From the IMG/VR virus record IMGVR_UViG_2585427734_000004: 22,017 bases of DNA. The stretch is one strand, 5' to 3'. The position numbers and the translations under genes are program-made. Shown here piece after piece: positions 3,772 to 21,083 of this stretch (within the stretch, counting starts at the first letter, position 1; the number at the start of each line of letters is the position of its first letter). The notes below the pieces were generated by a model that was not told the origin of the DNA, did no database searches, and saw only the letters and a program-made list of their open reading frames with translations. The stretch is from a virus (lineage: Duplodnaviria; Heunggongvirae; Uroviricota; Caudoviricetes).

Positions 3772-4005
3772 ATGCGTAATATTGAAACCCTCACGACTAA
3801 AACCGGACCGGATGACGCAGGGCTTAATATTTTACTGACAGAGGCTCGTCTGGAAGAACGCCGGGCAAGGGCTGAAGCAATGGCTGCCCGCCTTGATAGT
3901 CTTGCGTGTCATATCACATCCCGCCAGCTAAACCACGTCGAAGCGGCAGAACTGCTGCGTGTGACCGCTGAAGCAATCCAGAACGAAGCGCAGGAGATCC
4001 ACTAA
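3772..4005 (+). CDS. Hypothetical phage protein (DUF2732-like)
   Basis: ATG 3772 preceded by CAGGAG; helical, Ala/Glu-rich small protein; its stop overlaps the next start (TAATG). Confidence 0.55.
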   Translation: MRNIETLTTKTGPDDAGLNILLTEARLEERRARAEAMAARLDSLACHITSRQLNHVEAAELLRVTAEAIQNEAQEIH

Positions 4006-4232
4006 TGGCTGATGCAATGGATCTCGTACAGCAGCGCGTTGAAGAAGAACGCCAGCGCCATATCCGTGCTGCCCGTGCCAAAACACCGGGCGTGTCTCGC
4101 GTGCTTTGCATTGAATGTGATGCGCCAATTCCGCCAGCACGCCGCCGCGCCATTCCAGGAGTGCAGCTTTGCATTACCTGTCAGGAAATCGCAGAGCTGA
4201 AAGGCAAACATTACGACGGAGGTGCTGTATGA
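4005..4232 (+). CDS. TraR/DksA-family C4 zinc-finger protein
   Basis: C-terminal CIECDAPIP...x17...CITCQ pair of CxxC motifs; typical P2 orf82-like position just before gene A. Confidence 0.75.
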
Positions 4233-4531
4233 CAGGGGCTGTGCGTATCCATCAATTAAAAATTGCACCTAAGTATTTCAACGCTGTGGTTGCAGGTCAA
4301 AAGACGGCTGAACTTCGTAAAGACGATCGTGGCTATAAAGTTGGTGATGTTCTTTCTCTTTGCGAATGGAAGCATGGCGTATTTACGGGTAGGGAATGGG
4401 CCGCGGTTATCTCTCATGTGCTTCCGGTTAATGACGTGATGGCAGTTTCAGAACAATGGGTGATGCTATCAATTCGCTCATTAACCCCATTAGAAGCTTT
4501 AGGATATGTTATTGCAGGAGGTGCTGTATGA
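4229..4531 (+). CDS. DUF3850 / ASCH-like (PUA-fold) protein
   Basis: N-terminus [33 protein letters not shown] resembles the DUF3850 signature; ATG overlaps the upstream stop (ATGA). Confidence 0.6.
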
Positions 4532-5385
4532 GCACCATCCTGAAATGGGCGGGTAATAAAACCACCATTATGTCCGAACTGAAAAAATACCTTCCTGCTG
4601 GCACGCGACTGGTTGAACCTTTCGCGGGTTCTTGTGCTGTGATGATGGAGACGGATTACCCCAGCTATCTGGTTGCGGATATTAATCCTGATTTAATCAA
4701 CCTCTATAAAAAGGTTGCTGCTGATTGTGAGGCGTTTATATCTCGTGCCAGAGCTTTATTTGAGGAAGCAAACAGAGAGGTGGCTTATTACAACATAAGG
4801 CAGGAGTTTAATTACTCCACTGAAATTACTGATTTCATGAAAGCGGTATATTTTCTGTATCTCAATCGTCATGGTTACCGTGGGCTATGTCGCTATAACA
4901 AGAGCGGGTATTTCAACATTCCCTACGGTAATTATAAAAATCCGTATTTCCCTGAAAAAGAAATTCGCGCATTTGCAGAGAAAGCCCAGCGGGCAACGTT
5001 TATCTGCGCCAGCTTTGATGAAACGCTGGCGATGTTGAAGGCGGGGGATGTGGTGTATTGCGATCCGCCTTATGACGGTACGTTTTCCGGCTATCACACT
5101 GATGGCTTCACTGAAGATGACCAGTATCACCTGGCATCCGTTCTTGAACATCGATCATCTGAAGGTCATCCGGTCATTGTTTCTAACAGTGACACATCCC
5201 TGATCCGTTCGCTGTATCGCAATTTTACTCACCACTACATCAAGGCAAAACGCAGCATCGGCGTGGCAGCTGGTGAGAGTAAATCTGCAACAGAAATCAT
5301 CGCTGTTTCCGGGCCGCGCTGCTGGGTAGGATTTGATCCTTCGCGTGGCGTGGATTGTTCCGTCGTGTACGGAGTGCGTGCATGA
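4528..5385 (+). CDS. dam: DNA adenine methyltransferase (Dam-like, N6-adenine MTase)
   Basis: LKWAGNK...[12 protein letters not shown]-binding motif and DPPY catalytic motif; start overlaps the upstream stop. Confidence 0.85.
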
Positions 5386-8859: not shown

Positions 8860-9795
8860 ATGCAACTAACTTCTAAAATTATCAGTAAGTTTAATTATAA
8901 TAGATTAGCTTTCCAATTACTTTTAAATGAGGCCCCCAAAAAATATAAAGTTTATTATATTCCTAAACGTGGCGCAGGTTTTCGGGTGATAGCTCAGCCG
9001 ACAAAGGAACTAAAAAACGTACAGAGATTTATAGTATCTTTGCTACAGCCAAAGCTGCCTGTTCATCATAAGGCAATGGCATATGAATATAAAAAAAGTA
9101 TTAAAGATAATGCATTGTTGCATAAAGATAATAATTATATTCTTAAAATGGATTTTCAGAACTTCTTTAATAAAATTAAACCTGATATATTTTTCTCGAA
9201 ACTTGAGAACACAGGGCTGAAATTGGATTCATTTGATGAGAACACCCTACGTAATTTGCTTTTTTGGCGTCCGGGAAAAAAGAGAAGTACAACGTTGATA
9301 TTAAGTGTAGGGGCGCCAAGCTCACCATTTATTAGTAATTTTGTTATGTATGACTTTGACAAGAGTCTTGATGATTGGTGCCGTAACAATGGTATCACTT
9401 ATTCAAGGTATGCAGATGATATAACTTTTTCAACTAATATTAAGGATATATTGTGCAGGGTTCCTAAGGTGGTAAAAAAAATGTTGTCGCTCCATGTTCC
9501 CGGTCTATCAATCAATGAATCTAAAACAATTTTTACATCGATGGCTCATAATCGGCACGTGACTGGTGTAACACTTACACCTCAGGGCAATTTATCAATT
9601 GGTCGCGATCGTAAAAGGATGCTGTTTGCAAAGATTCATAAATATTCTTTGGGACTCTTATCTTCCGAAGAAATAAATAAAACCAAAGGGATGATTGCGT
9701 TTGCAAATTATTTGGAGGGTGATTTTTTATTAAGGTTACAAAAAAAATATGGTTGTGAGTTAATAACTAAGTTCCTGATGGAAGGAAACAAATAA
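8860..9795 (+). CDS. Retron-type reverse transcriptase
   Basis: 311 aa; YADD catalytic motif (SRYADDITFS), upstream FQNFFNKI, RT-like GAPSSPFISN; AAGAGGGG RBS; AT-rich codon usage. Confidence 0.85.
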   Translation: MQLTSKIISKFNYNRLAFQLLLNEAPKKYKVYYIPKRGAGFRVIAQPTKELKNVQRFIVSLLQPKLPVHHKAMAYEYKKSIKDNALLHKDNNYILKMDFQNFFNKIKPDIFFSKLENTGLKLDSFDENTLRNLLFWRPGKKRSTTLILSVGAPSSPFISNFVMYDFDKSLDDWCRNNGITYSRYADDITFSTNIKDILCRVPKVVKKMLSLHVPGLSINESKTIFTSMAHNRHVTGVTLTPQGNLSIGRDRKRMLFAKIHKYSLGLLSSEEINKTKGMIAFANYLEGDFLLRLQKKYGCELITKFLMEGNK

Positions 9796-11429
9796 TGATA
9801 AATAAAATGAATTTAGAGACTTGCTATGTTGATTTTTTAGAGTTGGAATCACATGTGATAAACGAGGATTATTTGAAGGAGTCTGTTGAGCTTCAAAAGC
9901 TAATATCTACTTTAAATGAGAGTAAGTTTCATTTAAATAAAATAGGTATACATGATTTTAAACGGATAAGAGAACTACAGATTTCCTTAGAAGATGATTT
10001 GACTGTTTTTGTCGGGGATAACGGATTCGGTAAAAGCACTATTTTGGATGCAATAGCAATTGTTTTGAGTTGGTTGAGATCAAATATTGAAAAGGAGAGT
10101 AAGCCTGGTACTTATATTAAAAGCCATGAAGTTAATAACTCTGTTGATGTTGAGTATGCATCAATTGATGCAAATATAAAACTTAAGGACTTTAATACCA
10201 GTATTTTGATTACTAAAGCGAAAGAGGGGGCATATTATTCTAGAAATAATGAATTGTTGGAGGTAAAAAAACTTGCAAGTATTTATAGACTTGTGAATAA
10301 ATATGTTGATAATGCAAGCTTGCCTTTGATGGCATATTATTCTATTGCGCGTTCTTATATAGGCGGTGGGGTTGATAGGAAAAGAAAAAATGCTAAAACT
10401 AAAACTGTATGGTCAAAATTCGATGTGTATGATGAAATCGAGTTTGACAGAAATGATTTTACCGATTTTTTTCAATGGCTTGTATTTCTTCATAACAGAG
10501 CTTCACAAGAGAAATTGAGTGAGTCACAAACGACAATCAATGCGTTATTTTCAGATATTCAAAGTTTGAAAGCAACATTAACTCAACTATCTGCGATTGA
10601 TAATATTGATTCAACAGTTATAAAAGGTTTAGAGCTTTCGCTTAAAGAAAAATTGAACTACATGAAATCTCTGCAATCAGGAGAACATAAGTTTAATAAT
10701 GCAGTATCACTTTATGATAGTGTTATAAATACCATTCTAAAGTTCTTGCCTGAATTTCAGTGGATTAAGCTTGTTTATGGTGATGATGATTATAAGATTA
10801 TCCTTAAAAAAGGAGAGGTTGAATTAGATGTTCAACAGTTGTCTCAAGGTGAGAAAACTATATTTACTTTAGTTGGTGATTTGGCTCGACGTTTAATTTT
10901 ACTTAATCCAAATTTATCTAATCCTCTATTGGGATATGGGATTGTTTTAATTGATGAAATTGATTTGCATTTGCATCCGCAATGGCAACAGACAATTATT
11001 GAGCGTTTGACATCTACATTCCCAAATGTTCAATTTGTAGTTACTACCCATAGCCCACAGGTTTTATCCACTGTTAGCTCTCGTTCAGTGCGTATTCTAC
11101 AGGAAGTGGAAGTAGATGGTGTTAATGATTTGATAGTGTCTCACCCCGACTATCAAATAAAAGGTGTTAGTAATCAGGATGCACTTTTATATGGAATGAG
11201 AACTGATCCTATACCCTCTACTAAAGAAAATGGTTGGCTTGAAGAATATAAAAAATTGGTTGAGCTTAATCGTTATAGCAGTGACGAGGCTCTTTTGTTA
11301 AGAGAAAAAGTTATTAAACATTTCGGATTAGACCATCCTTTAGTTCAAGAGTGTGATGATCTTATATCTGTTTTGGAGTTCAAAAATAAGATAAATCAGC
11401 ACTTTTCTGGAAGTAAGGATGTAAAATGA
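9795..11429 (+). CDS. ABC-type ATPase (Septu PtuA-like) retron effector component
   Basis: Walker A GDNGFGKST, signature LSQGEK, Walker B VLIDEIDLHLHP, H-loop VVTTHSP, with a long helical insert; start overlaps the RT stop. Confidence 0.8.
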   Translation: MINKMNLETCYVDFLELESHVINEDYLKESVELQKLISTLNESKFHLNKIGIHDFKRIRELQISLEDDLTVFVGDNGFGKSTILDAIAIVLSWLRSNIEKESKPGTYIKSHEVNNSVDVEYASIDANIKLKDFNTSILITKAKEGAYYSRNNELLEVKKLASIYRLVNKYVDNASLPLMAYYSIARSYIGGGVDRKRKNAKTKTVWSKFDVYDEIEFDRNDFTDFFQWLVFLHNRASQEKLSESQTTINALFSDIQSLKATLTQLSAIDNIDSTVIKGLELSLKEKLNYMKSLQSGEHKFNNAVSLYDSVINTILKFLPEFQWIKLVYGDDDYKIILKKGEVELDVQQLSQGEKTIFTLVGDLARRLILLNPNLSNPLLGYGIVLIDEIDLHLHPQWQQTIIERLTSTFPNVQFVVTTHSPQVLSTVSSRSVRILQEVEVDGVNDLIVSHPDYQIKGVSNQDALLYGMRTDPIPSTKENGWLEEYKKLVELNRYSSDEALLLREKVIKHFGLDHPLVQECDDLISVLEFKNKINQHFSGSKDVK

Positions 11430-12109
11430 AATATCTATCTAGGCAAATGCCAGGGCCTTCCGTTCTTAATAAATTTGACTATAGGAGGGATGATTGGAAT
11501 TCCCTATCATCAAATGATAAAAAAGAAATATGGGAAGAAATAATAAAAATGCAAGGTAAATTATGTGCTTATTGCGAGAAAAAAATAGAGCATCATAAAA
11601 GTGGTGACAAAAATAAAGTTGAGAGGCATATTGAGCATTTTTACAGGAAAAGTTATTACAAAAATTTAACTTTCGAGTGGTCTAATTTGTTTGGCTCATG
11701 TGGTGAGCCGCAAAGGTGTGGGTTTTATAAGGATAAGCAAAAATATAACGATGATGATTTAATTAAAGCTGATAGACAAAATCCAGATGTTTTTTTCCAT
11801 TTTTTGGAAAATGGTGATGTTCATATTAGAGAAGGCTTGAATGAGAAAGAACACAAAATGGCAGAGGTTACGTTAAGAGTATTTAACTTAAACCCGTCCT
11901 CAGGAGGAGTCAAGGCGGAAAGAAGACGTGCAATAGAATTAAGCATGACATTAATAAAGGAACTGGTCGGATGTGCATCTCAGCTTATTGAATCAGGATG
12001 TGAAATTGAAGATGTTAGATCTATGGTCTTTGATGAGTTTAAAAAGAATGTAAAAGATAGATGCTTTACCACTGCGATAAAGCATGTTTTTGAGAATAGA
12101 ATGCCTTAA
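11426..12109 (+). CDS. HNH endonuclease (PtuB-like) retron effector component
   Basis: CAYCEKK...HIEHF HNH-like Cys/His motifs; ATGA overlap with the ATPase stop. Confidence 0.75.
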   Translation: MKYLSRQMPGPSVLNKFDYRRDDWNSLSSNDKKEIWEEIIKMQGKLCAYCEKKIEHHKSGDKNKVERHIEHFYRKSYYKNLTFEWSNLFGSCGEPQRCGFYKDKQKYNDDDLIKADRQNPDVFFHFLENGDVHIREGLNEKEHKMAEVTLRVFNLNPSSGGVKAERRRAIELSMTLIKELVGCASQLIESGCEIEDVRSMVFDEFKKNVKDRCFTTAIKHVFENRMP

Positions 12110-12190: not shown

Positions 12191-12652
12191 TCATGGATTT
12201 TTTTTTTGTAGAGGTACTAATTCATTTGTCACAAAAACCTTACTAGCTTTCTCCACATCCCCAAACCCCCCAACATTATTCGGCATAATCCCCATCATTT
12301 GCGGCGGCACACGGTGTGCCGCCATCATGTCGTCCCGGCTCACGTTCTTGATATTCAGAAATTCATCCTTCGCTGCAACTTCTGACAACGGGATGATCTG
12401 AAGCCCGTCCTTTTTGCCGTTAGGCGAGTACATAAACAAGTTACGGAAGTTGCCCGGTCCTTTGGCGCTTTTCATCGCGTTGCGGAGGTTGTTCACATCC
12501 TCCTGGTTCTGCGCGGCGTCAGTCATATACATGATGAAGCCTGCATGACTGCCGTTAATGTAATACTTGCGGCGGAACAGCGTGGCGGACTCGTTGAGCA
12601 GGGCTGACGGAATGGCAGAAAGATAAGTTTTTTCTAACGGAGCACGGCTCAT
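12191..12652 (-). pseudogene. Capsid portal (gpQ-like) C-terminal fragment; terminase gene absent
   Basis: Minus-strand ORF whose 5' end overlaps the O start codon, leaving no P-O intergenic promoter; no Walker A, so not a terminase N-terminus. The Q assignment is by position and elimination. Confidence 0.35.
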
Positions 12653-13484
12653 GACAGTGAAAGCAAAGCGTTTTCGCATCGGGGTGGAAGGTGCCACCAC
12701 CGACGGACGCGAAATCCAGCGTGAATGGCTGGAACAGATGGCAGCCAGCTACAACCCGGCGGTGTACACCGCGCTGATTAACCTTGAGCACATCAAGTCT
12801 TATCTGCCGGACAGCACCTTTAACCGCTACGGCAAGGTGACGGCGCTGTTTGCTGAAGAAATCACGGAAGGTCCGCTGGCAGGCAAGATGGCATTGTATG
12901 CCGACGTTGAGCCAACGGAGTCCCTGGTGGAACTGGTGAAAAAAGGCCAGAAATTATTCACCTCTATGGAAGTCAGCCCGAAGTTCGCTGATACGGGCAA
13001 AGCCTCCCTGGTTGGCCTGGCCGCCACTGATGATCCCGCCAGTCTGGGTACGGAAATGCTGACATTCAGCGCCAGTGCAGCCCATACCCCGCTGGCAAAC
13101 CGCAAGCAGAATCCCGCCAATCTTTTTACCGCTGCAGAGGAAACGGTGATCGAACTGGAAGAAATCCAGGAGGACAAGCCGTCCCTGTTTGCCCGTGTCA
13201 CGGCGCTGTTTACCAAAAAAGAGCAGTCCGATGACGCCCGGTTCTCTGATGTGCATAAGGCCGTGGAGCTGGTCGCCACTGAGCAGCAGAACCTGAGCGC
13301 ACGCACCGAAAAATCCCTGTCTGAGCAGGAAGAACGCCTGTCTGAGCTGGAGACTGCTCTGCAGGAGCAGCAAACCGCCTTAAACGAACTGGTGAATAAG
13401 CTGAGTCATGAAGACAGCCGCCAGGACTACCGCCAGCGTGCAACAGGCGGTAACGCCCCCGCTGACACTCTGACCAATTGCTGA
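12651..13484 (+). CDS. O: Capsid scaffolding protein gpO
   Basis: N-terminus FRIGVEGATTDGREIQ...INLEH...SMEVSPKFADTGK...LVGLAATDDPASLGTE matches recalled P2 gpO (FRIGVEGDTCDGR...INLEH...LVGLAVTDDPASLGTE). Confidence 0.8.
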   Translation: MTVKAKRFRIGVEGATTDGREIQREWLEQMAASYNPAVYTALINLEHIKSYLPDSTFNRYGKVTALFAEEITEGPLAGKMALYADVEPTESLVELVKKGQKLFTSMEVSPKFADTGKASLVGLAATDDPASLGTEMLTFSASAAHTPLANRKQNPANLFTAAEETVIELEEIQEDKPSLFARVTALFTKKEQSDDARFSDVHKAVELVATEQQNLSARTEKSLSEQEERLSELETALQEQQTALNELVNKLSHEDSRQDYRQRATGGNAPADTLTNC

Positions 13485-13500
13485 TGGAGCACAAAACCTG

Positions 13501-13890
13501 ATGAAGAAGAATACCCGCTTTGCTTTTAACGCTTACCTGCAGCAACTGGCACGTCTGAACGGTGTGGCAGTTGAAGAACTGTCCAGCAAGTTCACTGTAG
13601 AGCCGTCTGTGCAGCAGACGCTGGAAGACCAGATCCAGCAGTCCGCCGCTTTCCTGACGCTGATTAACGTCACGCCAGTGCCTGAGCAGTCCGGTCAGCT
13701 GCTGGGGCTGGGTGTTGGCAGCACCATTGCCGGAACCACTGACACCACCGCGAAAGAGCGTGAACCTGTCGATCCGACGCTGATGGTCGATGTGGAATAC
13801 AAATGCGAACAGACCAACTTTGACACGGTGCTGACCTACGCGAAGCTGGACCTGTGGATCAGGCAACGCCGCGCACTAACGGTGATCTGA
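13501..13890 (+). pseudogene. N: Major capsid protein gpN, N-terminal ~120 aa only
   Basis: TRFAFNAYL...NGV...SKKFTVEPSV...LDLW matches the recalled P2 gpN N-terminus (TRFKFNAYL...KKFTVEPSV...LDLW), then diverges and stops; full gpN is ~357 aa. Confidence 0.6.
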
Positions 13891-13974
13891 ACGCGTTGCT
13901 GGATGAAACGGAGGCCGCCTGGGCGGTCTGTGCAGACAAAGTGGACATGATTATTGCGTGTCAGGAGCGAAACA

Positions 13975-14406
13975 GTGAACAAACCACAATCCCTGCGCCA
14001 CGCCCTCAATAAAGCAGTGCCTTATGTCCGCAATAACCCGGACAAACTGCATCTGTTTGTGGATAACGGTTCGCTGGTTGCCACGGGGGCCAGCTCCATG
14101 TCATGGGAGTACCGCTATACCCTGAACGTGGTGATTGAGGATTTCAGCGGCGACCAGAATCTGCTGATGGCCCCGGTTTTGCTGTGGCTGCGGGATAATC
14201 AGCCTGATGCCATCAATAACCCGGCGTTACGGGAAAAGTTATTCACCTTTGAGGTGGATATTCTGCGCAATGATGTCTGTGATATCAGCCTTAACCTGCA
14301 ACTGACGGAGCGTGTGCTGGTCAGCACTGATGGCAGTGTGTCGAGTGTTGAAGCTGTAGCGGAACCCGATGAACCTGAAGAAATGTGGACGGTGAAACGT
14401 GGCTGA
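13975..14406 (+). CDS. R: Tail completion protein gpR
   Basis: GTG 13975 with AGGAG RBS; KPQSLRHALNKAV...NPDKLHLFVDNGS...LWLRDNQPD resembles recalled P2 gpR (KPDSLRRALTDAV...NPDMLRIFVDNGS...AWLRENQPD). Confidence 0.7.
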   Translation: MNKPQSLRHALNKAVPYVRNNPDKLHLFVDNGSLVATGASSMSWEYRYTLNVVIEDFSGDQNLLMAPVLLWLRDNQPDAINNPALREKLFTFEVDILRNDVCDISLNLQLTERVLVSTDGSVSSVEAVAEPDEPEEMWTVKRG

Positions 14407-14845
14407 ATTGCAGAAGGTGGACGGCTGGTTGAGTGCCTTGCTGGCGAATCTGGAGCCAGCCGCAAGAAGCCGTATGATGCGCCAGCTGGCGCAAGAACTG
14501 CGCCGGACACAGCAGCAGAACATCAGGATGCAGCGCAATCCAGATGGCAGTAGTTATGAGCCGCGCAGAGTAACAGCACGCAGCAAAAAGGGGCGCATCA
14601 AACGTCAGATGTTTGCAAAGCTGCGCACCAAAAAATACCTGAAAACTGCCGCCAGCGCCGATTCTGCCAGCGTGCAGTTTGAAGGTAAGGTGCAGCGCAT
14701 TGCCCGCGTTCATCACTACGGCCTGCGTGATCGTGTTAGTCGTAAGGGGCCGGAGGTACGTTATGCTGAGCGGCGGCTATTGGGTTTCAACGATGAAGCT
14801 ACTCTTCAAATTAAGACAATTTTATCTAGTTACTTAATGGGGTGA
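14399..14845 (+). CDS. S: Tail completion / virion morphogenesis protein gpS
   Basis: GTG start overlapping the R stop; LEPAARSRMMRQLAQELRRTQQQNI...PDGS...GRIKRQMFAKLR...IARVHHYG fits the gpS virion-morphogenesis family pattern. The 3' end runs into AT-rich insert sequence. Confidence 0.7.
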   Translation: MAELQKVDGWLSALLANLEPAARSRMMRQLAQELRRTQQQNIRMQRNPDGSSYEPRRVTARSKKGRIKRQMFAKLRTKKYLKTAASADSASVQFEGKVQRIARVHHYGLRDRVSRKGPEVRYAERRLLGFNDEATLQIKTILSSYLMG

Positions 14846-14937
14846 AGATTCATGCTTTTGCTAGCTTCTACAAGGTTTTATGCTTCTAAACACTGTATGT
14901 TTAATTTGACATATAACTATTTGTACAAGCGGTGAGT

Positions 14938-16161
14938 ATGAAAAAGCAAGATGAGTCCCCCAAAGCTGATAAATCAAATTTAGATAAAAGTGAGTCTGAA
15001 CCACCAAAAGCGAACTCTATGGCAGATGCCATGGCCATAGCGGCAGAGGTTGCTACGACAGCAACGTCAGTTCAAACATCAACCTTTGCAATTATCGCGG
15101 ATTTTCTACGTTCAGGTGGTATAGAAAAACTAACTTCAAATGCTATCAAAAATTTAGAAATAAAAGTAAAGGGCCATTCTCAAGCGACAAGAACTACGGT
15201 ATTGAGGAACCTGAAGACCTCTTTCAAAGAGGAGAATTTAGTTCTTGTTTTAGGTGCTGGCATTTCTTTAGATTACAGCATACCAACATGGAGTGAATTA
15301 TTAAAGCGGCTATTGGCAAGAGCTTTGGATGATAAAAATGAAAATCAGAAAATGGTATCGGTTTTGTTTAATGAGGTTTTCGGTCCGAACGCACTCATAG
15401 CAGCCAGATATCTAAAACTACACTTTGATGGTATTAATACTCCCTTGGAAAAAGAAATTCAGCATGTTTTGTATGAATATTATCAGGAGGAAGAAAGCAG
15501 TACATTGAAAGCAATCAAGAAATTGTGCATATCGGCAGGCAAGTCACCAGGTCTAGATTCCGTTATTACATATAACTATGATGATATTTTGGAACAGACA
15601 TTAACTAGAGCTGATGTTGGTATAAAGTATAAGGTGATTTCAAAGACGGGACAGCATGCAAAAAATGATGAACTGCCGATCTACCATGTGCATGGCTATC
15701 TCCCATTGCAGGGGAAAGTTGAACTCGATGACACGCTAGTCCTTTCTGATGAAAGCTATCATAGGCAATACATGGATTTATACCATTGGAGCAATATGGT
15801 TCAGTTGAATAAATTCAAAGATGGTAATTGCCTGTTTGTTGGTCATTCCTTTACAGATCCAAACCTCAGAAGGTTGATGGATACAGCCAAAAAACTTAGA
15901 GGGAATGATTCTAAACCTCATTATTTAATTAAGTGTAGACATTCGAAAGAAGATGTGATTGCTAATATTCAAAGAATTGTTAGTGACTCAAGAAATGGAT
16001 TTGATAATAAACTGAATATTAATGAGGATGCAATCGCGACCTCTCTTTTACAGACAGTGCATACTTTTGAAGAAATCGATGCTAATTCATTTGGCGTGAA
16101 TGTTATTTGGATCGACTCTTACGATGAGATTGCACCAATACTTAATGATCTAACACAATAA
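14938..16161 (+). CDS. SIR2-family (SIR2_2-like) protein, candidate NAD+-depleting defence effector
   Basis: LVLVLGAGISLDYSIPTWSELL (GAGxS), VITYNYDDILEQ (TxNYD) and PIYHVHGYL (HxHG) motifs; low-complexity K/E/S/A/T-rich N-terminal ~90 aa; AT-rich gene in a GC-rich tail cluster. Start could also be GTG 14932 or ATG 15019. Confidence 0.75.
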   Translation: MKKQDESPKADKSNLDKSESEPPKANSMADAMAIAAEVATTATSVQTSTFAIIADFLRSGGIEKLTSNAIKNLEIKVKGHSQATRTTVLRNLKTSFKEENLVLVLGAGISLDYSIPTWSELLKRLLARALDDKNENQKMVSVLFNEVFGPNALIAARYLKLHFDGINTPLEKEIQHVLYEYYQEEESSTLKAIKKLCISAGKSPGLDSVITYNYDDILEQTLTRADVGIKYKVISKTGQHAKNDELPIYHVHGYLPLQGKVELDDTLVLSDESYHRQYMDLYHWSNMVQLNKFKDGNCLFVGHSFTDPNLRRLMDTAKKLRGNDSKPHYLIKCRHSKEDVIANIQRIVSDSRNGFDNKLNINEDAIATSLLQTVHTFEEIDANSFGVNVIWIDSYDEIAPILNDLTQ

Positions 16162-16238
16162 TCTCCCTAAGTTGTGCCAGAAATGGCACAGCTTTAAATC
16201 CTATCCTAATGACGGCAGCATTTGGCAATCTAATTGCC

Positions 16239-16454
16239 ATGAACGCTCAACTAACAGAAATCATGCGCCTTATCACCAATCTGATCCGCACTGGTGTAGT
16301 CACCGAAGTGGACCGGGAAAACTGGCTTTGTCGGGTGAAAACGGGCGACCTTGAAACCAACTGGATTAACTGGCTGACACTGCGCGCGGGCAAATCGCGC
16401 ACCTGGTGGAAAACTCACCATCGACTACGACTACACGCCAGTGCCGCCACTTGA
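16239..16454 (+). pseudogene. V: Baseplate spike gpV, N-terminal fragment
   Basis: [42 protein letters not shown] matches the recalled P2 gpV N-terminus (IRTGIIVETD...CRVQTG...WLQWLTHRAGRSRTWW), then diverges after ~60 aa and stops. Confidence 0.55.
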
Positions 16455-16524
16455 AAATCTGATGCTGCGCCAGCGCATCACCGATCAGTACCTGGTGAAT
16501 TTCGCAAGCCAGGTCAGCGCGTAA
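16387..16524 (+). pseudogene. Possible tail sheath (FI) C-terminal fragment
   Basis: A second frame reads ...[36 protein letters not shown] and stops 10 bp before the FII start with an RBS, the geometry expected for the end of FI. Identity is inferred from position only. Confidence 0.3.
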
Positions 16525-16533
16525 GGGGACAAC

Positions 16534-17049
16534 ATGGCTTTACCACGCAAATTAAAACATCTGAACCTGTTTAACGACGGGAACAACTGGCAGGGGATCG
16601 TTGAGTCGCTGACGCTGCCGAAATTCACCCGCAAATATGAGAAGTATCGCGGCGGCGGTATGCCGGGGGCGGTGGATGTGGATCTGGGACTGGATGACAG
16701 TGCACTGGATACAGAATTTTCCATTGGTGGTACCGAACTGCTGCTGTTTAAGCAGATGGGCAAATCCACGGTGGATGGCATCCAGTTGCGCTTTACCGGC
16801 TCTATCCAGCGTGACGATACCGGGGAAGTGCAGGCCGTGGAGCTTGTGGTGCGTGGACGTCACAAAGAAGTGGATTCCGGCGAGTGGAAGACGGGCGAAA
16901 GCAACACCACCAAAGTGACCAGTACCAACAGCTACGCGAAGCTGACCATCAATGGTGAGGTGCTCTATGAAGTGGACCTTATCAACATGGTGGAAATTGT
17001 GGACGGTGTGGACCTGATGGAAGCGCACCGCAACGCCCTCGGCCTCTGA
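16534..17049 (+). CDS. FII: Tail tube protein gpFII
   Basis: MALPRKLKHLNLFNDG...RGGGMPGAVDVDLGL...RDDTGEV...VRGRHK matches recalled P2 FII; AAGGGGA RBS. Confidence 0.85.
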   Translation: MALPRKLKHLNLFNDGNNWQGIVESLTLPKFTRKYEKYRGGGMPGAVDVDLGLDDSALDTEFSIGGTELLLFKQMGKSTVDGIQLRFTGSIQRDDTGEVQAVELVVRGRHKEVDSGEWKTGESNTTKVTSTNSYAKLTINGEVLYEVDLINMVEIVDGVDLMEAHRNALGL

Positions 17050-17103
17050 TGTATCTGAACGGCGCGGGATACCGCGCCAGAACCCAATTTACAGGACAAC
17101 AAA

Positions 17104-17406
17104 ATGAGCGATAAGCAGACTGAAAAGACCATTCAACTGGATACCCCTATCAAGCGCGGTAAAACGGAAATCACCGAAATTGTGCTGCGTAAGCCGCAGT
17201 CCGGTGCGCTGCGCGGCACGCGCCTGCAGGCCATTATGGATATGGATGTGAACGCGATGATGACCGTGATCCCCCGCATTTCCAGTCCGGTACTGACTGC
17301 ACAGGAAATCGCAGAGATGGACCCGGCAGATCTCACCGCTATGTCGGTTGAGGTTGTCACTTTTTTGTTGAAGAAGTCGGTGCTTGCCGGTTTACCGACA
17401 GCCTGA
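17104..17406 (+). CDS. E: Tail assembly chaperone gpE
   Basis: 100-aa ORF after FII containing the TTTTTTG slippery heptamer near its 3' end, the expected E/E' arrangement. Confidence 0.75.
   Translation: MSDKQTEKTIQLDTPIKRGKTEITEIVLRKPQSGALRGTRLQAIMDMDVNAMMTVIPRISSPVLTAQEIAEMDPADLTAMSVEVVTFLLKKSVLAGLPTA
17361..17367 (+). promoter_or_regulatory. Programmed -1 frameshift slippery site TTTTTTG (E to E')
   Basis: Heptamer located 37 nt before the E stop; the -1 frame is open from here to 17756. Confidence 0.6.
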
Positions 17407-17420
17407 CGGTTGACGATCTG

Positions 17421-17756
17421 GTGGCAGACATCGCCACCATTTTTCACTGGCCGCCATCCGTTACTGACGTTATGCCGCTGGAGCAGATGGCAGAACAGGG
17501 GAAAGCATGGCCTCTGATTGAAGGCAGCGGCACGATTTACGGCATGTATGTGATTGAGGGACTGAATCAGACTAAAACGGAGTTTTTCCGCGACGGTATG
17601 CCGCGCCGGATTGAGTTCACCCTGTCGCTCAAACGGGTGGATGAATCCCTGTCCGATATGTTCGGTGATCTCAGTGCGCAACTGAATAATCTGCAGGAAA
17701 CGGCAACATCTGCTTTAAGCGATATCAGTAAAACGGTGGGAGGGCTGCTGTCGTGA
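17421..17756 (+). pseudogene. E' extension continuing into a tail-protein U-like C-terminal segment; tape measure gene T absent
   Basis: -1 frame relative to E with no stop from 17361 to 17756; ends in a GTGA overlap with the D start. Only ~130 codons lie between the E slippery site and D, where P2 has T (~815 aa) and U. Confidence 0.45.
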
Positions 17757-18853
17757 ATTTCAGCTCTGAACTGCTTAACAAGGGCAACAAAACTCCCGCA
17801 TTCAGCATCAGTATTGAGGGCAGGGATATCACTACTGTCCTGGATAATCGCCTGATGAGTCTGACGCTGACGGACAATCGGGGCTTTGAAGCGGACCAGC
17901 TTGATCTGGAGCTGGACGACGCCGACGGAAAAATCGTGCTGCCGCGCCGTGGTGCGGTCATTACGCTGGCGCTGGGCTGGAAGGGGCAGCCGCTTTTCCC
18001 GAAAGGGGCATTCACGGTGGACGAGATTGAACACACTGGCGCACCGGACCGCCTGACTATCCGGGCGCGAAGTGCTGATTTTCGGGAAACGCTGAATCCC
18101 CGCCGTGAAAAATCGTGGCACAAGACCACGGTTGGGGAAGTGGTGAAGGAAATAGCTGCGCGTCACAAACTGAAGATGGCACTGGGTAAAGACCTGTCGG
18201 ATAAACCCGTGGATCATATAGACCAGACTAATGAGAGTGACGGCAGTTTTCTGATGCGGTTGGCGCGCCAATACGGTGCTATTGCGTCGGTGAAAAATGG
18301 CAATCTGTTATTCATCCGACAGGGACAGGGCAAAAGCGCCACTGGTAAACCACTGCCGGTGATCACTATCACACGCAAGGACGGCGACAGTCACCGATTT
18401 ACCCTGGCAGATCGCGGAGCCTACATGGGCGTAATTGCCAGCTGGTTGCATACCCGCGAACCTGCGAAGAAAGAAAGCACCACGGTGAAGCGTAAGCGCA
18501 GAACTAAGAAGCAGAAGAAAGAGCCGGAAGCGAAGCAGGGCGATTACCTGGTGGGTACGGATGAAAACGTGCTGGTACTTAATCGCACTTATGCCAACCG
18601 GAGCAACGCCGAACGGGCAGCGAAAATGCAGTGGGAACGCCTGCAACGCGGTGTTGCGTCATTCTCGCTACAACTGGCGGAAGGGCGGGCAGATCTCTAC
18701 ACGGAAATGCCAGTGAAAGTCAGTGGCTTTAAACAGCCGATAGATGATGCGGAATGGACTATTACCACCCTGACGCATACTGTCAGCCCGGATAACGGTT
18801 TTACGACCAGTCTGGAGCTTGAAGTGAAGATTGATGATTTCGAAATGGAATGA
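17753..18853 (+). CDS. D: Tail protein gpD
   Basis: LTLTDNRGFEADQLDLELDDADG...FTVDEIEHTGAPDRL...RSADFR...SW, KR-rich central linker and C-terminal TSLELEV match recalled P2 gpD; GTG start with GGTGGGAGGG RBS. Confidence 0.85.
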   Translation: MNFSSELLNKGNKTPAFSISIEGRDITTVLDNRLMSLTLTDNRGFEADQLDLELDDADGKIVLPRRGAVITLALGWKGQPLFPKGAFTVDEIEHTGAPDRLTIRARSADFRETLNPRREKSWHKTTVGEVVKEIAARHKLKMALGKDLSDKPVDHIDQTNESDGSFLMRLARQYGAIASVKNGNLLFIRQGQGKSATGKPLPVITITRKDGDSHRFTLADRGAYMGVIASWLHTREPAKKESTTVKRKRRTKKQKKEPEAKQGDYLVGTDENVLVLNRTYANRSNAERAAKMQWERLQRGVASFSLQLAEGRADLYTEMPVKVSGFKQPIDDAEWTITTLTHTVSPDNGFTTSLELEVKIDDFEME

Positions 18854-19184: not shown

Positions 19185-19397
19185 TCATTAAAAAACAGTG
19201 CTTCTAACATCATGATTTTAAAAGGCATAAATTTCAGGCAACAAAAAACCCATCAACCTTGAACCGAAATGGCGGGGGTGATGGGCTCCACAAAATGGGG
19301 ACATCAAAGAAAAGCAGTGGCACTAATTAAGACTGATGCCCTGCGGAAAAGTTCTGCGGTTGTGCAAAAAAATTTCATTTTCAGGGCAACTTCAGTT

Positions 19398-21083
19398 TTA
19401 TCCTAATCCTGGCCATACCATGACGATGATTGTCCCTGCCAGCGTCAGCAGGACGTTGGCGATTGCATAGGTGCCCGCATAGCCCAGCGCCGGGATGTTA
19501 CTGCGAGCTGTATCACTGATGATCTCCATTGCCGGCGCGCAGGTACGTGCGCCCATCATTGCGCCGAACAACAGCGCGCGGTTCATTCGCAATACATAAG
19601 CACCGAACAAGAAACAGATAACCACGGGCACCAGACTGACAATCAATCCGGCAATCAACATCTGACCGCCAATCGCGCCCAGGCCGTTATTAATCCCGCT
19701 ACCGGCGCTCAGACCAACGCCTGCCATAAACACCATCAAGCCGAACTCTTTCACCATGCTTAATGCACCCTGCGGAATGTAACCGAAGGTCGGGTGGTTA
19801 GCACGCATAAAGCCCAGCATAATTCCGGCGAATAACAACCCGGCAGCGTTCCCCATGCCGAAACTGAATGTGCTGAACTGGAAGGTGATCATCCCGATCA
19901 TCAGCCCAATAACAAAGAAGGCGCAGAATGCCAGCAGGTCAGTGACCTGGCTGTGAATCGAGATAAAGCCGATGCGATCGGCGATGGTTTTTACGCGACG
20001 GGCATCACCGCTGACTTGTAAAACGTCACCTTTGTTAAGCACGACGTTGTCATCTATCGGCATCTCAATCTGGCTACGAATGACGCGGTTAAGGAAGCAA
20101 CCGTGATCGGTCAACTTCAGTTGTGCGAGACGTTTACCTACAGCGTTATGGTTTTTAACGACCACTTCTTCAGTGACGATACGCATGTCGAGAAGGTCAC
20201 GATCGAAAACTTCTTTACCGTTACGGAAGCTGGGATCGAGTCGGGCATGGGCGTCGGGATAGCCTACCAACGCTATTTCATCGCCCATTTGTAGCACGGC
20301 ATCACCGTCTGGATTTGCCAGAATCCCGTTACGTCGAATACGTTCAATGTAGCAGCCGGTTTGTCGATAAATACCCAGTTCACGCAGATTTTTGCCGTCG
20401 GTCCAGGCCACCAGCTCCGGGCCGACGCGATAGGCGCGGATCACCGGTAAATAAACCTTACGGTTGGCATCAGTGTCCAGGCCACGTTCGCGGGCGATTT
20501 GCTGGGCGCTGGTCTGTAAGTCCTGATGCTGCAATTTCGGCAAGTAACGCGCACCAACAATCAAACTCACCAGACCGATTAAATAGGTTAAGGCATACCC
20601 GAGGCTCAGATTATCCAGTGCCAGTGAGAGCTGCCTGCTTTCCATGCCGGAATGACGCAGTGTATCGCCAGCACCGACCAGAACCGGTGTCGACGTCATA
20701 GAGCCTGCTAACATACCGGCCGTCAGGCCAATATCCCAGCCAAACAGCTTACCTAACCCTAAGGCGATCACCAGCGCACTGCCAACCATCACCAGTGCTA
20801 ACATTAGGTAATTTTTCCCATCGCGAAAAAAAATGGAAAAAAAGTTCGGTCCGGCTTCAACCCCAACACAGAAAATAAACAGCATAAAGCCAAGATTAAG
20901 CGCATCGGTGTTAATGCTGAAATGTTGTTGGCCTAATAACAGCGATACGACTAAAACGCCAATGGAATTACCCAGTTGGATCGAACCAAGTCGTAACTTT
21001 CCGAGACATAGCCCAAGCGCGAGGACCACAAATAATAACAGAATGTAATTCCCATTTAACAATTCGGCGACGTTTATATTCAC
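19398..21083 (-). CDS. ybjL: Putative transport protein YbjL (AAE transporter family)
   Basis: 561-aa polytopic membrane protein recognised as E. coli YbjL; conserved synteny ybjL-ybjM-grxA. Confidence 0.9.

What the first reader, a model, noticed from the sequence alone, without database searches (positions are those of the whole stretch)
4218..4531. Identical 15-bp junctions GGAGGTGCTGTATGA flanking the DUF3850/ASCH gene
The same 15-mer (RBS, ATG, overlapping TGA) occurs at 4218-4232 and 4517-4531, so the upstream TraR-like gene and the ASCH gene both end in ...GGAV and the ASCH gene is bracketed by perfect direct repeats. This is a cassette-like arrangement that could allow precise gain or loss by short-homology recombination while keeping translational coupling.
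Basis: seen in the sequence. Interest (0 to 1): 0.4.

Follow-up and report, generated by a model that had tools for sequence, protein, structure and literature searches.

The report
Optional phage gene bracketed by coupling junctions
A small optional gene in an E. coli P2-like prophage is bracketed by two identical 15-base junctions, and over a thousand related prophages lack exactly that 299-base unit and keep one junction copy; this is a clean example of an already known way that phage genomes gain and lose genes.

Summary
GGAGGTGCTGTATGA occurs exactly at 4218-4232 and 4517-4531, with none expected by chance. It forms the TraR->ASCH and ASCH->Dam junctions; each has a ribosome-binding site and an ATG overlapping the upstream TGA, and both upstream proteins end in GGAV.

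Of 1243 E. coli complete genomes carrying this region, 77 have the ASCH gene. Nearly all the others, plus Klebsiella and Salmonella phages including Fels-2, have TraR joined directly to Dam through a single copy of the 15-mer, exactly 299 bp shorter.

The junction belongs to a wider motif, GGnGGnGCnnnATGA. It marks every boundary of a variable slot after TraR in 186/Fels-2-like phages. That slot holds nothing, ASCH, an exonuclease, or exonuclease + small ORF + ASCH.

What is not shown is that the 15-mer is itself the recombination substrate. Linkage is low across the whole region with no dip at the junction. The same precise polymorphism occurs where the two copies match at only 11-13 of 15 positions. 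No reciprocal tandem duplication was found.

Verdict: a real, tidy but modest finding, and a new member of a known kind (short conserved boundary repeats in phage mosaicism).

The parts
4218..4232 (+). Left copy of the 15-mer, forming the TraR->ASCH junction. It holds the last four TraR codons (GGA GGT GCT GTA = G-G-A-V), the TGA stop, the SD GGAGGTG, and the ASCH ATG (4229-4231) overlapping the stop.
   Evidence: the same sequence ends TraR in empty sites and in L008, L117 and L127
4517..4531 (+). Right copy of the 15-mer, forming the ASCH->Dam junction. It holds the last four ASCH codons (G-G-A-V), the TGA stop, the SD, and the Dam ATG (4528-4530).
   Evidence: 43 of 44 E. coli-type occupied loci have both copies exact
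4233..4531 (+). The 299-bp indel unit (equally well written as 4218-4516): the ASCH body plus one junction copy. It is absent from most related prophages.
   Evidence: Record span is 842 vs 1141 bp in phage and E. coli hits. The synthetic deletion aligns as one piece to empty prophages.
4005..4232 (+). TraR/DksA-type zinc-finger gene (homolog of P2 Orf82 and the 186 DksA-like gene). It forms the left border of the variable slot.
   Evidence: Pfam PF01258 E = 4e-11; annotated homologs
4229..4531 (+). DUF3850/ASCH gene (100 aa), the optional cassette. GC3 is 31.7% against 46-47% in its neighbours.
   Evidence: Pfam PF12961 E = 1.1e-23 and PF04266 E = 1.9e-5; PDB 3iuw E = 8e-10; composition
4528..5385 (+). 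Dam-type D12 N6-adenine DNA methyltransferase, translationally coupled to whichever gene precedes it.
   Evidence: Pfam PF02086 E = 2.3e-76; PADLOC orphan MTase E = 6.4e-111
4515..4542 (+). Predicted RNA hairpin in which the SD half of the right 15-mer (GGAGGUGCU) pairs with Dam codons 2-5 (AGCACC.AUCC), with the AUG in the loop. This would make Dam translation depend on ribosomes finishing the upstream ORF.
   Evidence: z = -2.2 in the window and -2.9 at the empty site L001; the left copy shows no structure, z = -0.8. The structure is compatible with 83% of cells in 21 distinct junctions vs 35-46% in slid controls, but covariation is weak. Predicted only.

Best explanation
The ASCH/DUF3850 gene is an optional, promoterless cassette. 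It sits in a variable slot of the early (replication) operon of a 186/Fels-2-like P2-family prophage, between the TraR-like gene and Dam.

SHOWN:
- Each boundary in this slot is the same kind of translational-coupling junction, GGnGGnGCnnnATGA. It comprises a Shine-Dalgarno sequence inside the last codons of the upstream gene (which therefore ends G-G-A-x) and a start codon overlapping the stop.
- In the E. coli lineage the two junctions around ASCH are identical over 15 bp.
- The allele without ASCH is exactly the product of collapsing the two copies into one.
- Both alleles are old, and the surrounding flanks recombine freely.

INFERRED:
- The junction acts as a short boundary homology. Either the empty allele arose by deletion between the two copies (replication slippage or short-homology recombination), or ASCH entered by an out-of-register crossover at the junction.
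- Both routes automatically preserve the upstream protein's tail, the reading frames and Dam's ribosome-binding context. That context includes a predicted hairpin hiding Dam's SD until the upstream ORF is translated.
- Once formed, both alleles spread among prophages mainly by ordinary homologous recombination in the flanks.
- Polarity is unresolved. I lean slightly towards ASCH-Dam being the older arrangement and the empty site being a deletion.
For: Exact indel:
- Phage records at 95-97% identity, and 54 of 60 evenly sampled E. coli hits, span 842 bp where the window spans 1141 bp.
- 77 of 1243 E. coli genomes are occupied.
- Empty sites carry one 15-mer with identical outer flanks.
- The synthetic deletion aligns as one piece.

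Shared junction:
- The degenerate motif occurs only at the two junctions in the window (0.02 expected).
- It occurs four times in a row in L008 and L107, across TraR-exo-orfX-ASCH-Dam.
- It is present at TraR->exo and exo->DUF5405 in phage 186.
- 274 of 280 occurrences in 1.97 Mb of fetched DNA lie at slot junctions.

Recurrence:
- Both states occur in three Dam clusters that are about 27-30% divergent.
- In cluster 17, empty sites match occupied L127 up to the junction on both sides, with a 58%-identical ASCH allele.

Age and spread:
- ASCH has 15 haplotypes and pi = 0.015, against 0.031-0.041 in the flanks.
- There is no fixed flank SNP between the two states.
- Fels-2 is mosaic around the junction.

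Breakpoints: copying switches of occupied haplotypes are enriched within +-50 bp of the junction, about 16 of 57 against 4.4 expected if uniform.

Coupling:
- ATGA overlaps and the GGAGGTG SD are present at both junctions, and a hairpin is predicted at Dam's start.
- The 186 record notes that translation to the end of orf84 is needed for A.

Precedent: Pope et al. 2011 describe a gene whose C-terminal end repeats that of its upstream neighbour. They interpret it as deletion or insertion via short boundary sequences (PMC3029335).
Against: - LD among empty sites is uniformly low (r2 0.05-0.15) with no dip at the junction.
- The enrichment of copying switches reduces to a few founder events, mostly L152-like on the left and L223/L224-like on the right.
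- No occupied/empty pair has near-identical flanks on both sides. The nearest empty prophage to the window is 97.4% identical, against 99.9% for the nearest occupied one. No recent de novo event was therefore caught.
- No tandem ASCH duplication was found.
- Lineages with imperfect repeats (8-13 of 15) show the same architecture and, in two clusters, the same polymorphism. Perfect identity is therefore not needed.
- Much of the 15-mer is functionally constrained anyway: the SD, the ATG and TGA, and pairing with Dam codons. Within the E. coli lineage its invariance is not statistically remarkable: about 2.6 segregating sites are expected in 30 nt from the insert's rate, and 1 is observed.
Confidence: 0.6

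Rival explanations
1. Function-only junctions. The two 15-mers are alike because each must supply a strong SD, correct spacing, an ATGA overlap and (for the right copy) pairing with Dam's first codons. The indel itself arose once by illegitimate recombination that selection placed at gene boundaries (the Hendrix model). It has since moved only by homologous recombination in the flanks. The repeat plays no part in recombination.
For: - GGAGGTG is a perfect 7-nt anti-SD complement, and the ATGA overlap fixes 4 more bases.
- A hairpin with Dam codons 2-5 is predicted for both TraR->Dam and ASCH->Dam.
- Where the G-G-A tail is broken (GGAAGTG, GGGAGTG, AAGGGGG), SD-likeness is retained.
- There is no LD dip at the junction.
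- Fels-2 looks as though it imported an empty junction patch by flanking recombination.
Against: - The four spacer bases (CTGT) are also identical in the two copies.
- Other ATGA or TAATG junctions in the same operon (DUF2732->TraR, DUF5405->PAPS reductase, PAPS reductase->A, all P2 junctions) do not use this motif.
- The motif tracks exactly the variable genes.
- Variation at wobble positions 3, 6 and 9, with positions 1, 2, 4, 5, 7 and 8 near-invariant, looks like descent from a common unit rather than independent convergence.
Confidence: 0.3
2. Secondary homogenisation. ASCH-Dam is ancestral with diverged junctions, as in other lineages. In E. coli, frequent recombination or gene conversion with the far commoner empty allele overwrote the ASCH 3' junction with the TraR->Dam sequence. 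The perfect repeat is then a consequence of the polymorphism and not its cause.
For: - Only the lineage in which empty alleles dominate (about 94% of E. coli carriers) has 15 of 15 identity. Lineages sampled only as occupied have 8-13 of 15.
- The TraR tail GGAGGTGCTGTATGA is widespread whatever gene follows it, whereas the ASCH tail varies.
- ASCH residues just upstream (YVIA|GGAV vs YVIS|GGAI) are orthologous, so only 3 substitutions separate the junction types.
Against: No intermediate junctions were seen apart from one 14-of-15 variant, L095. Conversion tracts ending inside 15 bp of homology are themselves a form of short-homology recombination, so this overlaps with the best explanation.
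Confidence: 0.08
3. A mobile-element insertion with a 15-bp target-site duplication, caused by a transposon, homing element or site-specific cassette.
For: Formally, one copy at empty sites and two copies flanking the insert is the signature of a target-site duplication.
Against: - The 284 bp between the repeats is just the ASCH ORF. There are no terminal inverted repeats and no transposase or homing nuclease.
- The right-hand 'duplication' encodes the last four codons of ASCH. Those codons are conserved as G-G-A-x in ASCH orthologs with diverged junctions, so they belong to the gene.
- A real IS insertion is seen in L128 (IS1 inside ASCH) and looks quite different.
Confidence: 0.02

Closest known systems
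Short conserved boundary ('linker') sequences in phage mosaicism, notably mycobacteriophage Island3 gene 68 vs Brujita (Pope et al. 2011, PMC3029335)
   Same: An extra small gene is present in one phage and absent in a close relative. The 3' end of the extra gene repeats the 3' end of the upstream gene at both nucleotide and protein level. It is interpretable either as an intramolecular deletion or as an intermolecular insertion.
   Different: - The repeat here is 15 bp, not about 50 bp.
- It coincides exactly with an SD-ATGA coupling junction.
- The same motif recurs at every boundary of a multi-gene variable slot.
- The polymorphism is documented in more than a thousand genomes.
Deletion between short direct repeats (RecA-independent replication slippage or short-homology recombination; named from established knowledge, not from a paper read here)
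   Same: Two perfect direct repeats 299 bp apart. The short allele retains exactly one copy.
   Different: No de novo event or rate was measured here. The alleles are old and are spread by homologous recombination.
Morons (extra genes between conserved phage genes)
   Same: The gene is optional, sits between two conserved genes, and has a lower GC3 than its neighbours.
   Different: It has no promoter or terminator of its own and no intergenic space. It is translationally coupled on both sides.
Integron gene-cassette arrays
   Same: Promoterless genes lie in series, each followed by a similar short boundary element, and the number of cassettes varies.
   Different: There is no attC-type imperfect palindrome and no IntI integrase. 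The boundary is a 15-nt coding and SD element. This is an analogy only.
Known P2-like variable hotspots (old/tin after gpA, Z/fun, tail-to-CI)
   Same: These are variable accessory content at fixed positions of P2-family genomes (10.1101/2024.10.15.618418). The window itself carries a retron/Septu-type module in the post-A hotspot.
   Different: This slot lies inside the early operon, holds single small genes fused by 4-nt overlaps, and is not among the hotspots those papers list.

Membership tests
Indel bounded by short conserved boundary repeats (linker model) | Two direct repeats flank the variable segment | tested here: met
   15 of 15 identity, spacing 299
Indel bounded by short conserved boundary repeats (linker model) | The allele lacking the segment keeps exactly one repeat copy with the same outer flanks | tested here: met
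   L001, L002 and L006; more than 100 IMG/VR loci; E. coli spans of 842 vs 1141 bp; one-piece alignment of the synthetic deletion
Indel bounded by short conserved boundary repeats (linker model) | The repeats lie at gene boundaries, so both alleles keep intact ORFs | tested here: met
   TraR, ASCH and Dam are intact in both states
Indel bounded by short conserved boundary repeats (linker model) | Recombination actually takes place within the repeats | tested here: inconclusive
   No LD dip at the junction. Copying switches are enriched near the junction but trace to few independent events. No duplication product found.
Moron | An extra gene absent from close relatives | tested here: met
Moron | Own promoter and terminator flanking the gene | tested here: not met
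   4-nt overlaps on both sides. No + strand promoter-like site around ASCH; the only + strand terminator-like site (4090-4102) lies inside TraR, and site counts equal the shuffled expectation.
Integron cassette | attC recombination site and a neighbouring IntI integrase | tested here: not met
   There is no inverted-repeat element at the boundary. The only integrase is the prophage integrase at 1-1209.
Transposable element with target-site duplication | Terminal inverted repeats and/or a transposase within the insert | tested here: not met
   No terminal inverted repeats. The insert is a single DUF3850 ORF.
Translationally coupled overlapping genes | Start codon overlaps the upstream stop (ATGA), with an SD inside the upstream ORF | tested here: met
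   Sequence at both junctions
Translationally coupled overlapping genes | Downstream translation depends on upstream translation | not testable with these tools
   Support is indirect only: a predicted SD-sequestering hairpin, and the 186 record's note for orf84->A.
ASCH / DUF3850 (PUA-like fold) | Pfam DUF3850 and ASCH matches above the gathering score | tested here: met
   83.6 bits vs a cut-off of 22.9, and 25.7 bits vs 21.2; PDB 3iuw E = 8e-10; 47% identity to P2 Orf91
ASCH as partner of N6-adenine methyltransferases (Iyer et al., PMC4738411) | Operonic linkage or fusion with an N6A methyltransferase | tested here: met
   ASCH is immediately upstream of Dam in every Fels-2-like locus recovered. 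The link is not general, though: P2 Orf91 and the sampled Firmicutes loci lack a methyltransferase neighbour.

The most novel reading that the evidence does not exclude
The GGnGGnGCnnnATGA junction is a portable adaptor. It serves both as a translational-coupling signal and as a recombination linker. This would let promoterless genes (TraR-like, DnaQ-like exonuclease, a 61-aa ORF, ASCH, Dam) be shuffled, inserted and deleted in register. In effect this would be an integrase-free, integron-like cassette array inside the early operon of 186/Fels-2-like phages.

A still more speculative corollary: the Gly-Gly-Ala-x C-terminus shared by four unrelated proteins, which is preserved through synonymous changes, could itself be a functional peptide signal.
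Probability: 0.3. Interest if true: 0.6.

Novelty: new member of a known kind. Interest (0 to 1): 0.4.

Why it matters
It gives an unusually clean, population-scale example of how a phage operon can gain or lose a single gene without disturbing its neighbours. The boundary element carries the upstream protein's tail, the stop codon, the ribosome-binding site and the next start codon. Any exchange at that element is therefore automatically in frame and keeps expression coupled.

It bears on the old debate about phage mosaic joints: whether they come from short conserved linkers or from random illegitimate recombination filtered by selection. The system here is experimentally tractable, since E. 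coli lysogens carrying either allele are common.

It also flags a small variable slot in P2-family early operons that hotspot surveys have not listed. The constant ASCH-Dam adjacency fits the proposal that ASCH domains read adenine methylation.

Tried and rejected
- L128 first looked like a divergent ASCH allele plus a remnant. It is simply IS1 inserted into the E. coli-type ASCH.
- I looked for empty sites in the second Dam lineage (Dam starting ATGACCACT), which would have shown an independent deletion with a chimeric junction. None were found in IMG/VR.
- I tested whether the junction is a recombination hotspot using an LD profile in 80 distinct empty haplotypes. There was no dip.
- A Li-Stephens-style copying model gave an apparent enrichment of switches at the junction. 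Most of it traces to one founder combination, so I do not count it as strong evidence.
- I searched for a very recent indel, meaning an empty prophage nearly identical to the window. The nearest is 97.4% identical.
- I searched for the tandem-duplication junction in IMG/VR, the JGI metagenomes and E. coli genomes. None was found; the E. coli listing showed only 12 of 76 records, so that search is not exhaustive.
- RNAalifold did not return the SD hairpin as its consensus. Explicit pair counting shows conservation but little covariation.
- I checked whether DUF3850 genes outside the Peduoviridae neighbour methyltransferases. They did not do so consistently.
- The transposon, integron and moron readings were rejected on their defining features.
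- The third near-copy of the 15-mer, at 16956, lies inside a tail-tube ORF and is chance.

Full report
OBSERVATION

The 15-mer GGAGGTGCTGTATGA is present exactly at 4218-4232 and 4517-4531 on the + strand. None of 100 dinucleotide-preserving shuffles produced any match, even allowing 2 mismatches. The repeat finder returns the same pair, 15 nt long with a 299-nt spacing. The identity stops at the edges of the 15-mer, and local alignment of the 60 nt on either side finds only 6-nt chance matches.

Pfam assigns the genes as follows:
- 3772-4005: DUF2732
- 4005-4232: TraR/DksA zinc finger
- 4229-4531: DUF3850/ASCH
- 4528-5385: D12-class Dam methylase

These are followed by a P2 gpA-type replication endonuclease that runs to 7796. 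Both junctions are ATGA overlaps preceded by GGAGGTG, a perfect 7-nt Shine-Dalgarno sequence. Both upstream proteins end in GGAV.

CONTEXT

The window is an E. coli prophage of the 186/Fels-2 branch of the Peduoviridae, 99.9% identical to strain C51 across the early region. In this copy the late region is largely missing, but the early operon is intact.

THE PREDICTED POLYMORPHISM EXISTS AND IS EXACT

- Among deposited phages, 55 of 56 matching records cover the query in two pieces spanning 842 bp instead of 1141 bp, a difference of exactly 299 bp.
- In Klebsiella phage ST11-VIM1phi8.4, Escherichia phage Cartapus and Fels-2, TraR is annotated as directly overlapping Dam.
- Those sites read ...CATTACAAC-GGAGGTGCTGTATGA-GCACCATCCTG.... 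That is one copy of the repeat, with the window's left flank before it and the window's right flank after it.
- In 5426 complete E. coli genomes, 1243 carry the region and 77 carry ASCH.
- An evenly spaced sample of 60 hits contained 4 occupied sites (1141 bp), 54 empty sites (842 bp), one divergent empty site and one fragment.
- A synthetic window with 4233-4531 removed aligns as a single ungapped piece to the empty prophages.

THE JUNCTION BELONGS TO A WIDER MOTIF THAT MARKS A VARIABLE SLOT

I recovered about 80 viral contigs and 50 genome contigs encoding ASCH relatives and mapped the neighbouring genes with tblastn. In every Peduoviridae context ASCH lies immediately upstream of Dam. The interval after TraR holds one of:
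- nothing
- ASCH
- a DnaQ/RNase T-type exonuclease (Salmonella phage SEN8)
- exonuclease + a 61-aa ORF + ASCH (L008, L107)

In ESSI2_ev040 the order is DUF2732-exo-ASCH-Dam.

Every one of these boundaries fits GGnGGnGCnnnATGA. As a result TraR, the exonuclease, the small ORF and ASCH all end in G-G-A-x. L008 and L107 have four such junctions in a row. Phage 186 has the motif at TraR->exo and exo->DUF5405 but not at its later junctions. P2 has none.

The degenerate motif occurs twice in the window against 0.02 expected. In 1.97 Mb of fetched DNA, 274 of 280 occurrences lie at junctions of this slot. Other overlapping junctions in the same operon, such as DUF2732->TraR, use different sequences.

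Perfect 15-of-15 identity between the two copies is specific to the E. coli-type ASCH, where 43 of 44 loci have it. Other lineages have 8-13 of 15.

POPULATION STRUCTURE

I compared 43 occupied and 109 empty IMG/VR loci of the E. coli type.
- No flank SNP is fixed between the two states. The best discriminator, at -136, has frequencies of 0.81 vs 0.17.
- Divergence between states (0.042-0.045) barely exceeds diversity within them.
- ASCH has 15 haplotypes, 25 segregating sites in 284 nt, and pi = 0.015 against 0.031-0.041 in its flanks. The polymorphism is therefore old.
- Individual flanks are shared across states. Occupied L098 has a left flank identical to empty L207, and occupied L072 has a right flank 1 of 850 different from empty L223.
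- LD among empty haplotypes is uniformly low, with no dip at the junction.
- A copying model places about 16 of 57 switches within +-50 bp of the junction, against 4.4 expected if uniform and about 6 of 45 in an empty-vs-empty control. Most of these reflect one founder combination, so this is weak evidence.
- No empty prophage is nearly identical to the window.
- No tandem ASCH duplication was found.

DISTRIBUTION ACROSS LINEAGES AND POLARITY

Both states occur in three Dam clusters that differ by about 27-30% in protein sequence.
- In cluster 17, empty sites L216 and L227 match occupied L127 up to the junction on both sides. Yet L127's ASCH is only 58% identical to the window's, and its junction copies match at 13 of 15.
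- Fels-2 (cluster 13) is mosaic. Its TraR 3' end, the 15-mer and the first 60 nt of Dam resemble the E. coli empty type, while the rest resembles the ASCH-bearing L003/L100 type. This suggests the empty junction was imported by flanking recombination.
- More divergent Klebsiella phages have empty sites with synonymous variants of the junction, such as GGGGGTGCTGTATGA.

ASCH-Dam adjacency extends to phages whose Dam is only about 50% identical (L005, L112), which favours an old ASCH-Dam pair. Against that, ASCH has a distinctly lower GC3 (31.7% vs 46-47%), which is typical of an acquired gene. I regard the polarity as unresolved.

COUPLING

At the junction before Dam, in both the occupied and the empty form, the SD half of the 15-mer is predicted to pair with Dam codons 2-5, with the AUG in the loop. 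The z-scores are -2.2 and -2.9. The TraR->ASCH copy shows no such structure, with z = -0.8.

Across 21 distinct junctions the structure is compatible with 83% of cells, against 35-46% for slid controls. Only one pair shows a change on both sides, and RNAalifold did not select the structure itself. The hairpin is therefore plausible but unproven.

The phage 186 record states that translation to the end of orf84 appears necessary for translation of A. Coupling in this operon is thus already documented.

INTERPRETATION

Shown:
- a precise, old and widespread presence/absence polymorphism of a promoterless gene
- boundaries formed by a shared coupling junction that is specific to the variable slot

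Inferred:
- the junction acts as a short boundary homology at which the cassette was inserted or deleted
- spread thereafter is by ordinary homologous recombination

The main rival is that the junctions are alike only because of functional constraint (SD, overlap, hairpin). On that view the indel arose by illegitimate recombination unrelated to the repeat. Against it, the spacer bases are also identical, the motif is confined to the variable genes, and the variation follows a wobble-position pattern. None of these points is decisive.

A mobile-element origin is rejected. There are no terminal inverted repeats and no transposase, and the 'duplicated' right copy encodes a conserved part of ASCH.

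The moron label also fails. The gene has no promoter, terminator or intergenic space of its own.

COMPARISON WITH WHAT IS KNOWN

The closest precedent is mycobacteriophage Island3 gene 68. Its C-terminal 18 residues, about 50 bp, repeat those of the upstream gene. Pope et al. interpret this as either a deletion or an insertion through short conserved boundary sequences (PMC3029335).

Papers on P2-like hotspots list old/tin, Z/fun and a tail-to-CI locus, not this early-operon slot. ASCH domains have been noted as repeatedly fused to, or operonically linked with, N6-adenine methyltransferases, and have been proposed as readers of modified bases (PMC4738411). The ASCH-Dam adjacency here fits that proposal. 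DUF3850 genes elsewhere (P2 Orf91 downstream of A, and the Firmicutes loci) lack such a neighbour.

VERDICT

It is a well-documented new member of a known kind, not a new mechanism. Interest is moderate (0.4). It would rise if experiments showed that the junction acts as a true recombination adaptor.

Noticed in passing
window 8860-12109: The cargo after gpA, at the old/tin-type hotspot position, is a type I-A retron / Septu-like module. It comprises a reverse transcriptase (PADLOC RT_I-A, 4.9e-131), a PtuA ATPase (2.3e-193) and a PtuB HNH protein (6e-118). GC is about 33%. No retron ncRNA reached an Rfam gathering score.
   Followed up: partly
window 12651-18853: The prophage is defective. 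A lone GPO scaffold gene (12651-13484) is followed by a SIR2-like gene (14932-16161; weak ThsA/LmuA-like hits) and then FII, E and D tail genes. Portal, terminase, capsid and most tail genes are missing, whereas the closely related C51 prophage has at least portal, terminase, scaffold and major capsid genes.
   Followed up: partly
window 19240-19318 (-) and 19398-21083 (-): The chromosomal flank holds the RybB sRNA (Rfam, 100 bits) and an Asp-Al_Ex/TrkA_C permease.
   Followed up: no
window 4515-4542: A predicted hairpin sequesters Dam's SD against Dam codons 2-5, which resemble the anti-SD sequence (CACCAUCC). It is present at both occupied and empty sites. It is conserved mainly through sequence conservation, and covariation is weak.
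   Followed up: partly
window 5371-5385: The Dam->gpA junction GGAGTGCGTGCATGA resembles the 15-mer with a one-base shift. In Klebsiella relatives it reads GAGGTGCGCGCGTGA. This may be a more distant relative of the same junction type.
   Followed up: no
L128 3150-3920 (IMGVR_UViG_643348545_000015): An IS1 element (InsA/InsB ORFs) is inserted in the E. coli-type ASCH gene. The gene can therefore be inactivated without loss of the prophage.
   Followed up: partly
L008 2813-2998 and L107 (same position): A 61-aa ORF lies between the exonuclease and ASCH. It has no Pfam match, ends in GGAV, and is bounded by the junction motif on both sides.
   Followed up: no
L262 317-646 (phage P2 Orf91): P2 carries its DUF3850 gene downstream of gene A rather than upstream of a methylase. 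It is 47% identical to the window ASCH over 75 aa. The same small gene family therefore occupies two different positions in Peduoviridae genomes.
   Followed up: partly
L012 2032-3294: In Lachnospiraceae contigs DUF3850 is the C-terminal domain of a 420-aa protein next to a ParA-type ATPase. This is a context unrelated to the phage early operon.
   Followed up: no
window 16956-16970: A 2-mismatch copy of the 15-mer (TGAGGTGCTCTATGA) lies inside the tail-tube (FII) ORF, not at a gene junction. It is a chance match.
   Followed up: yes
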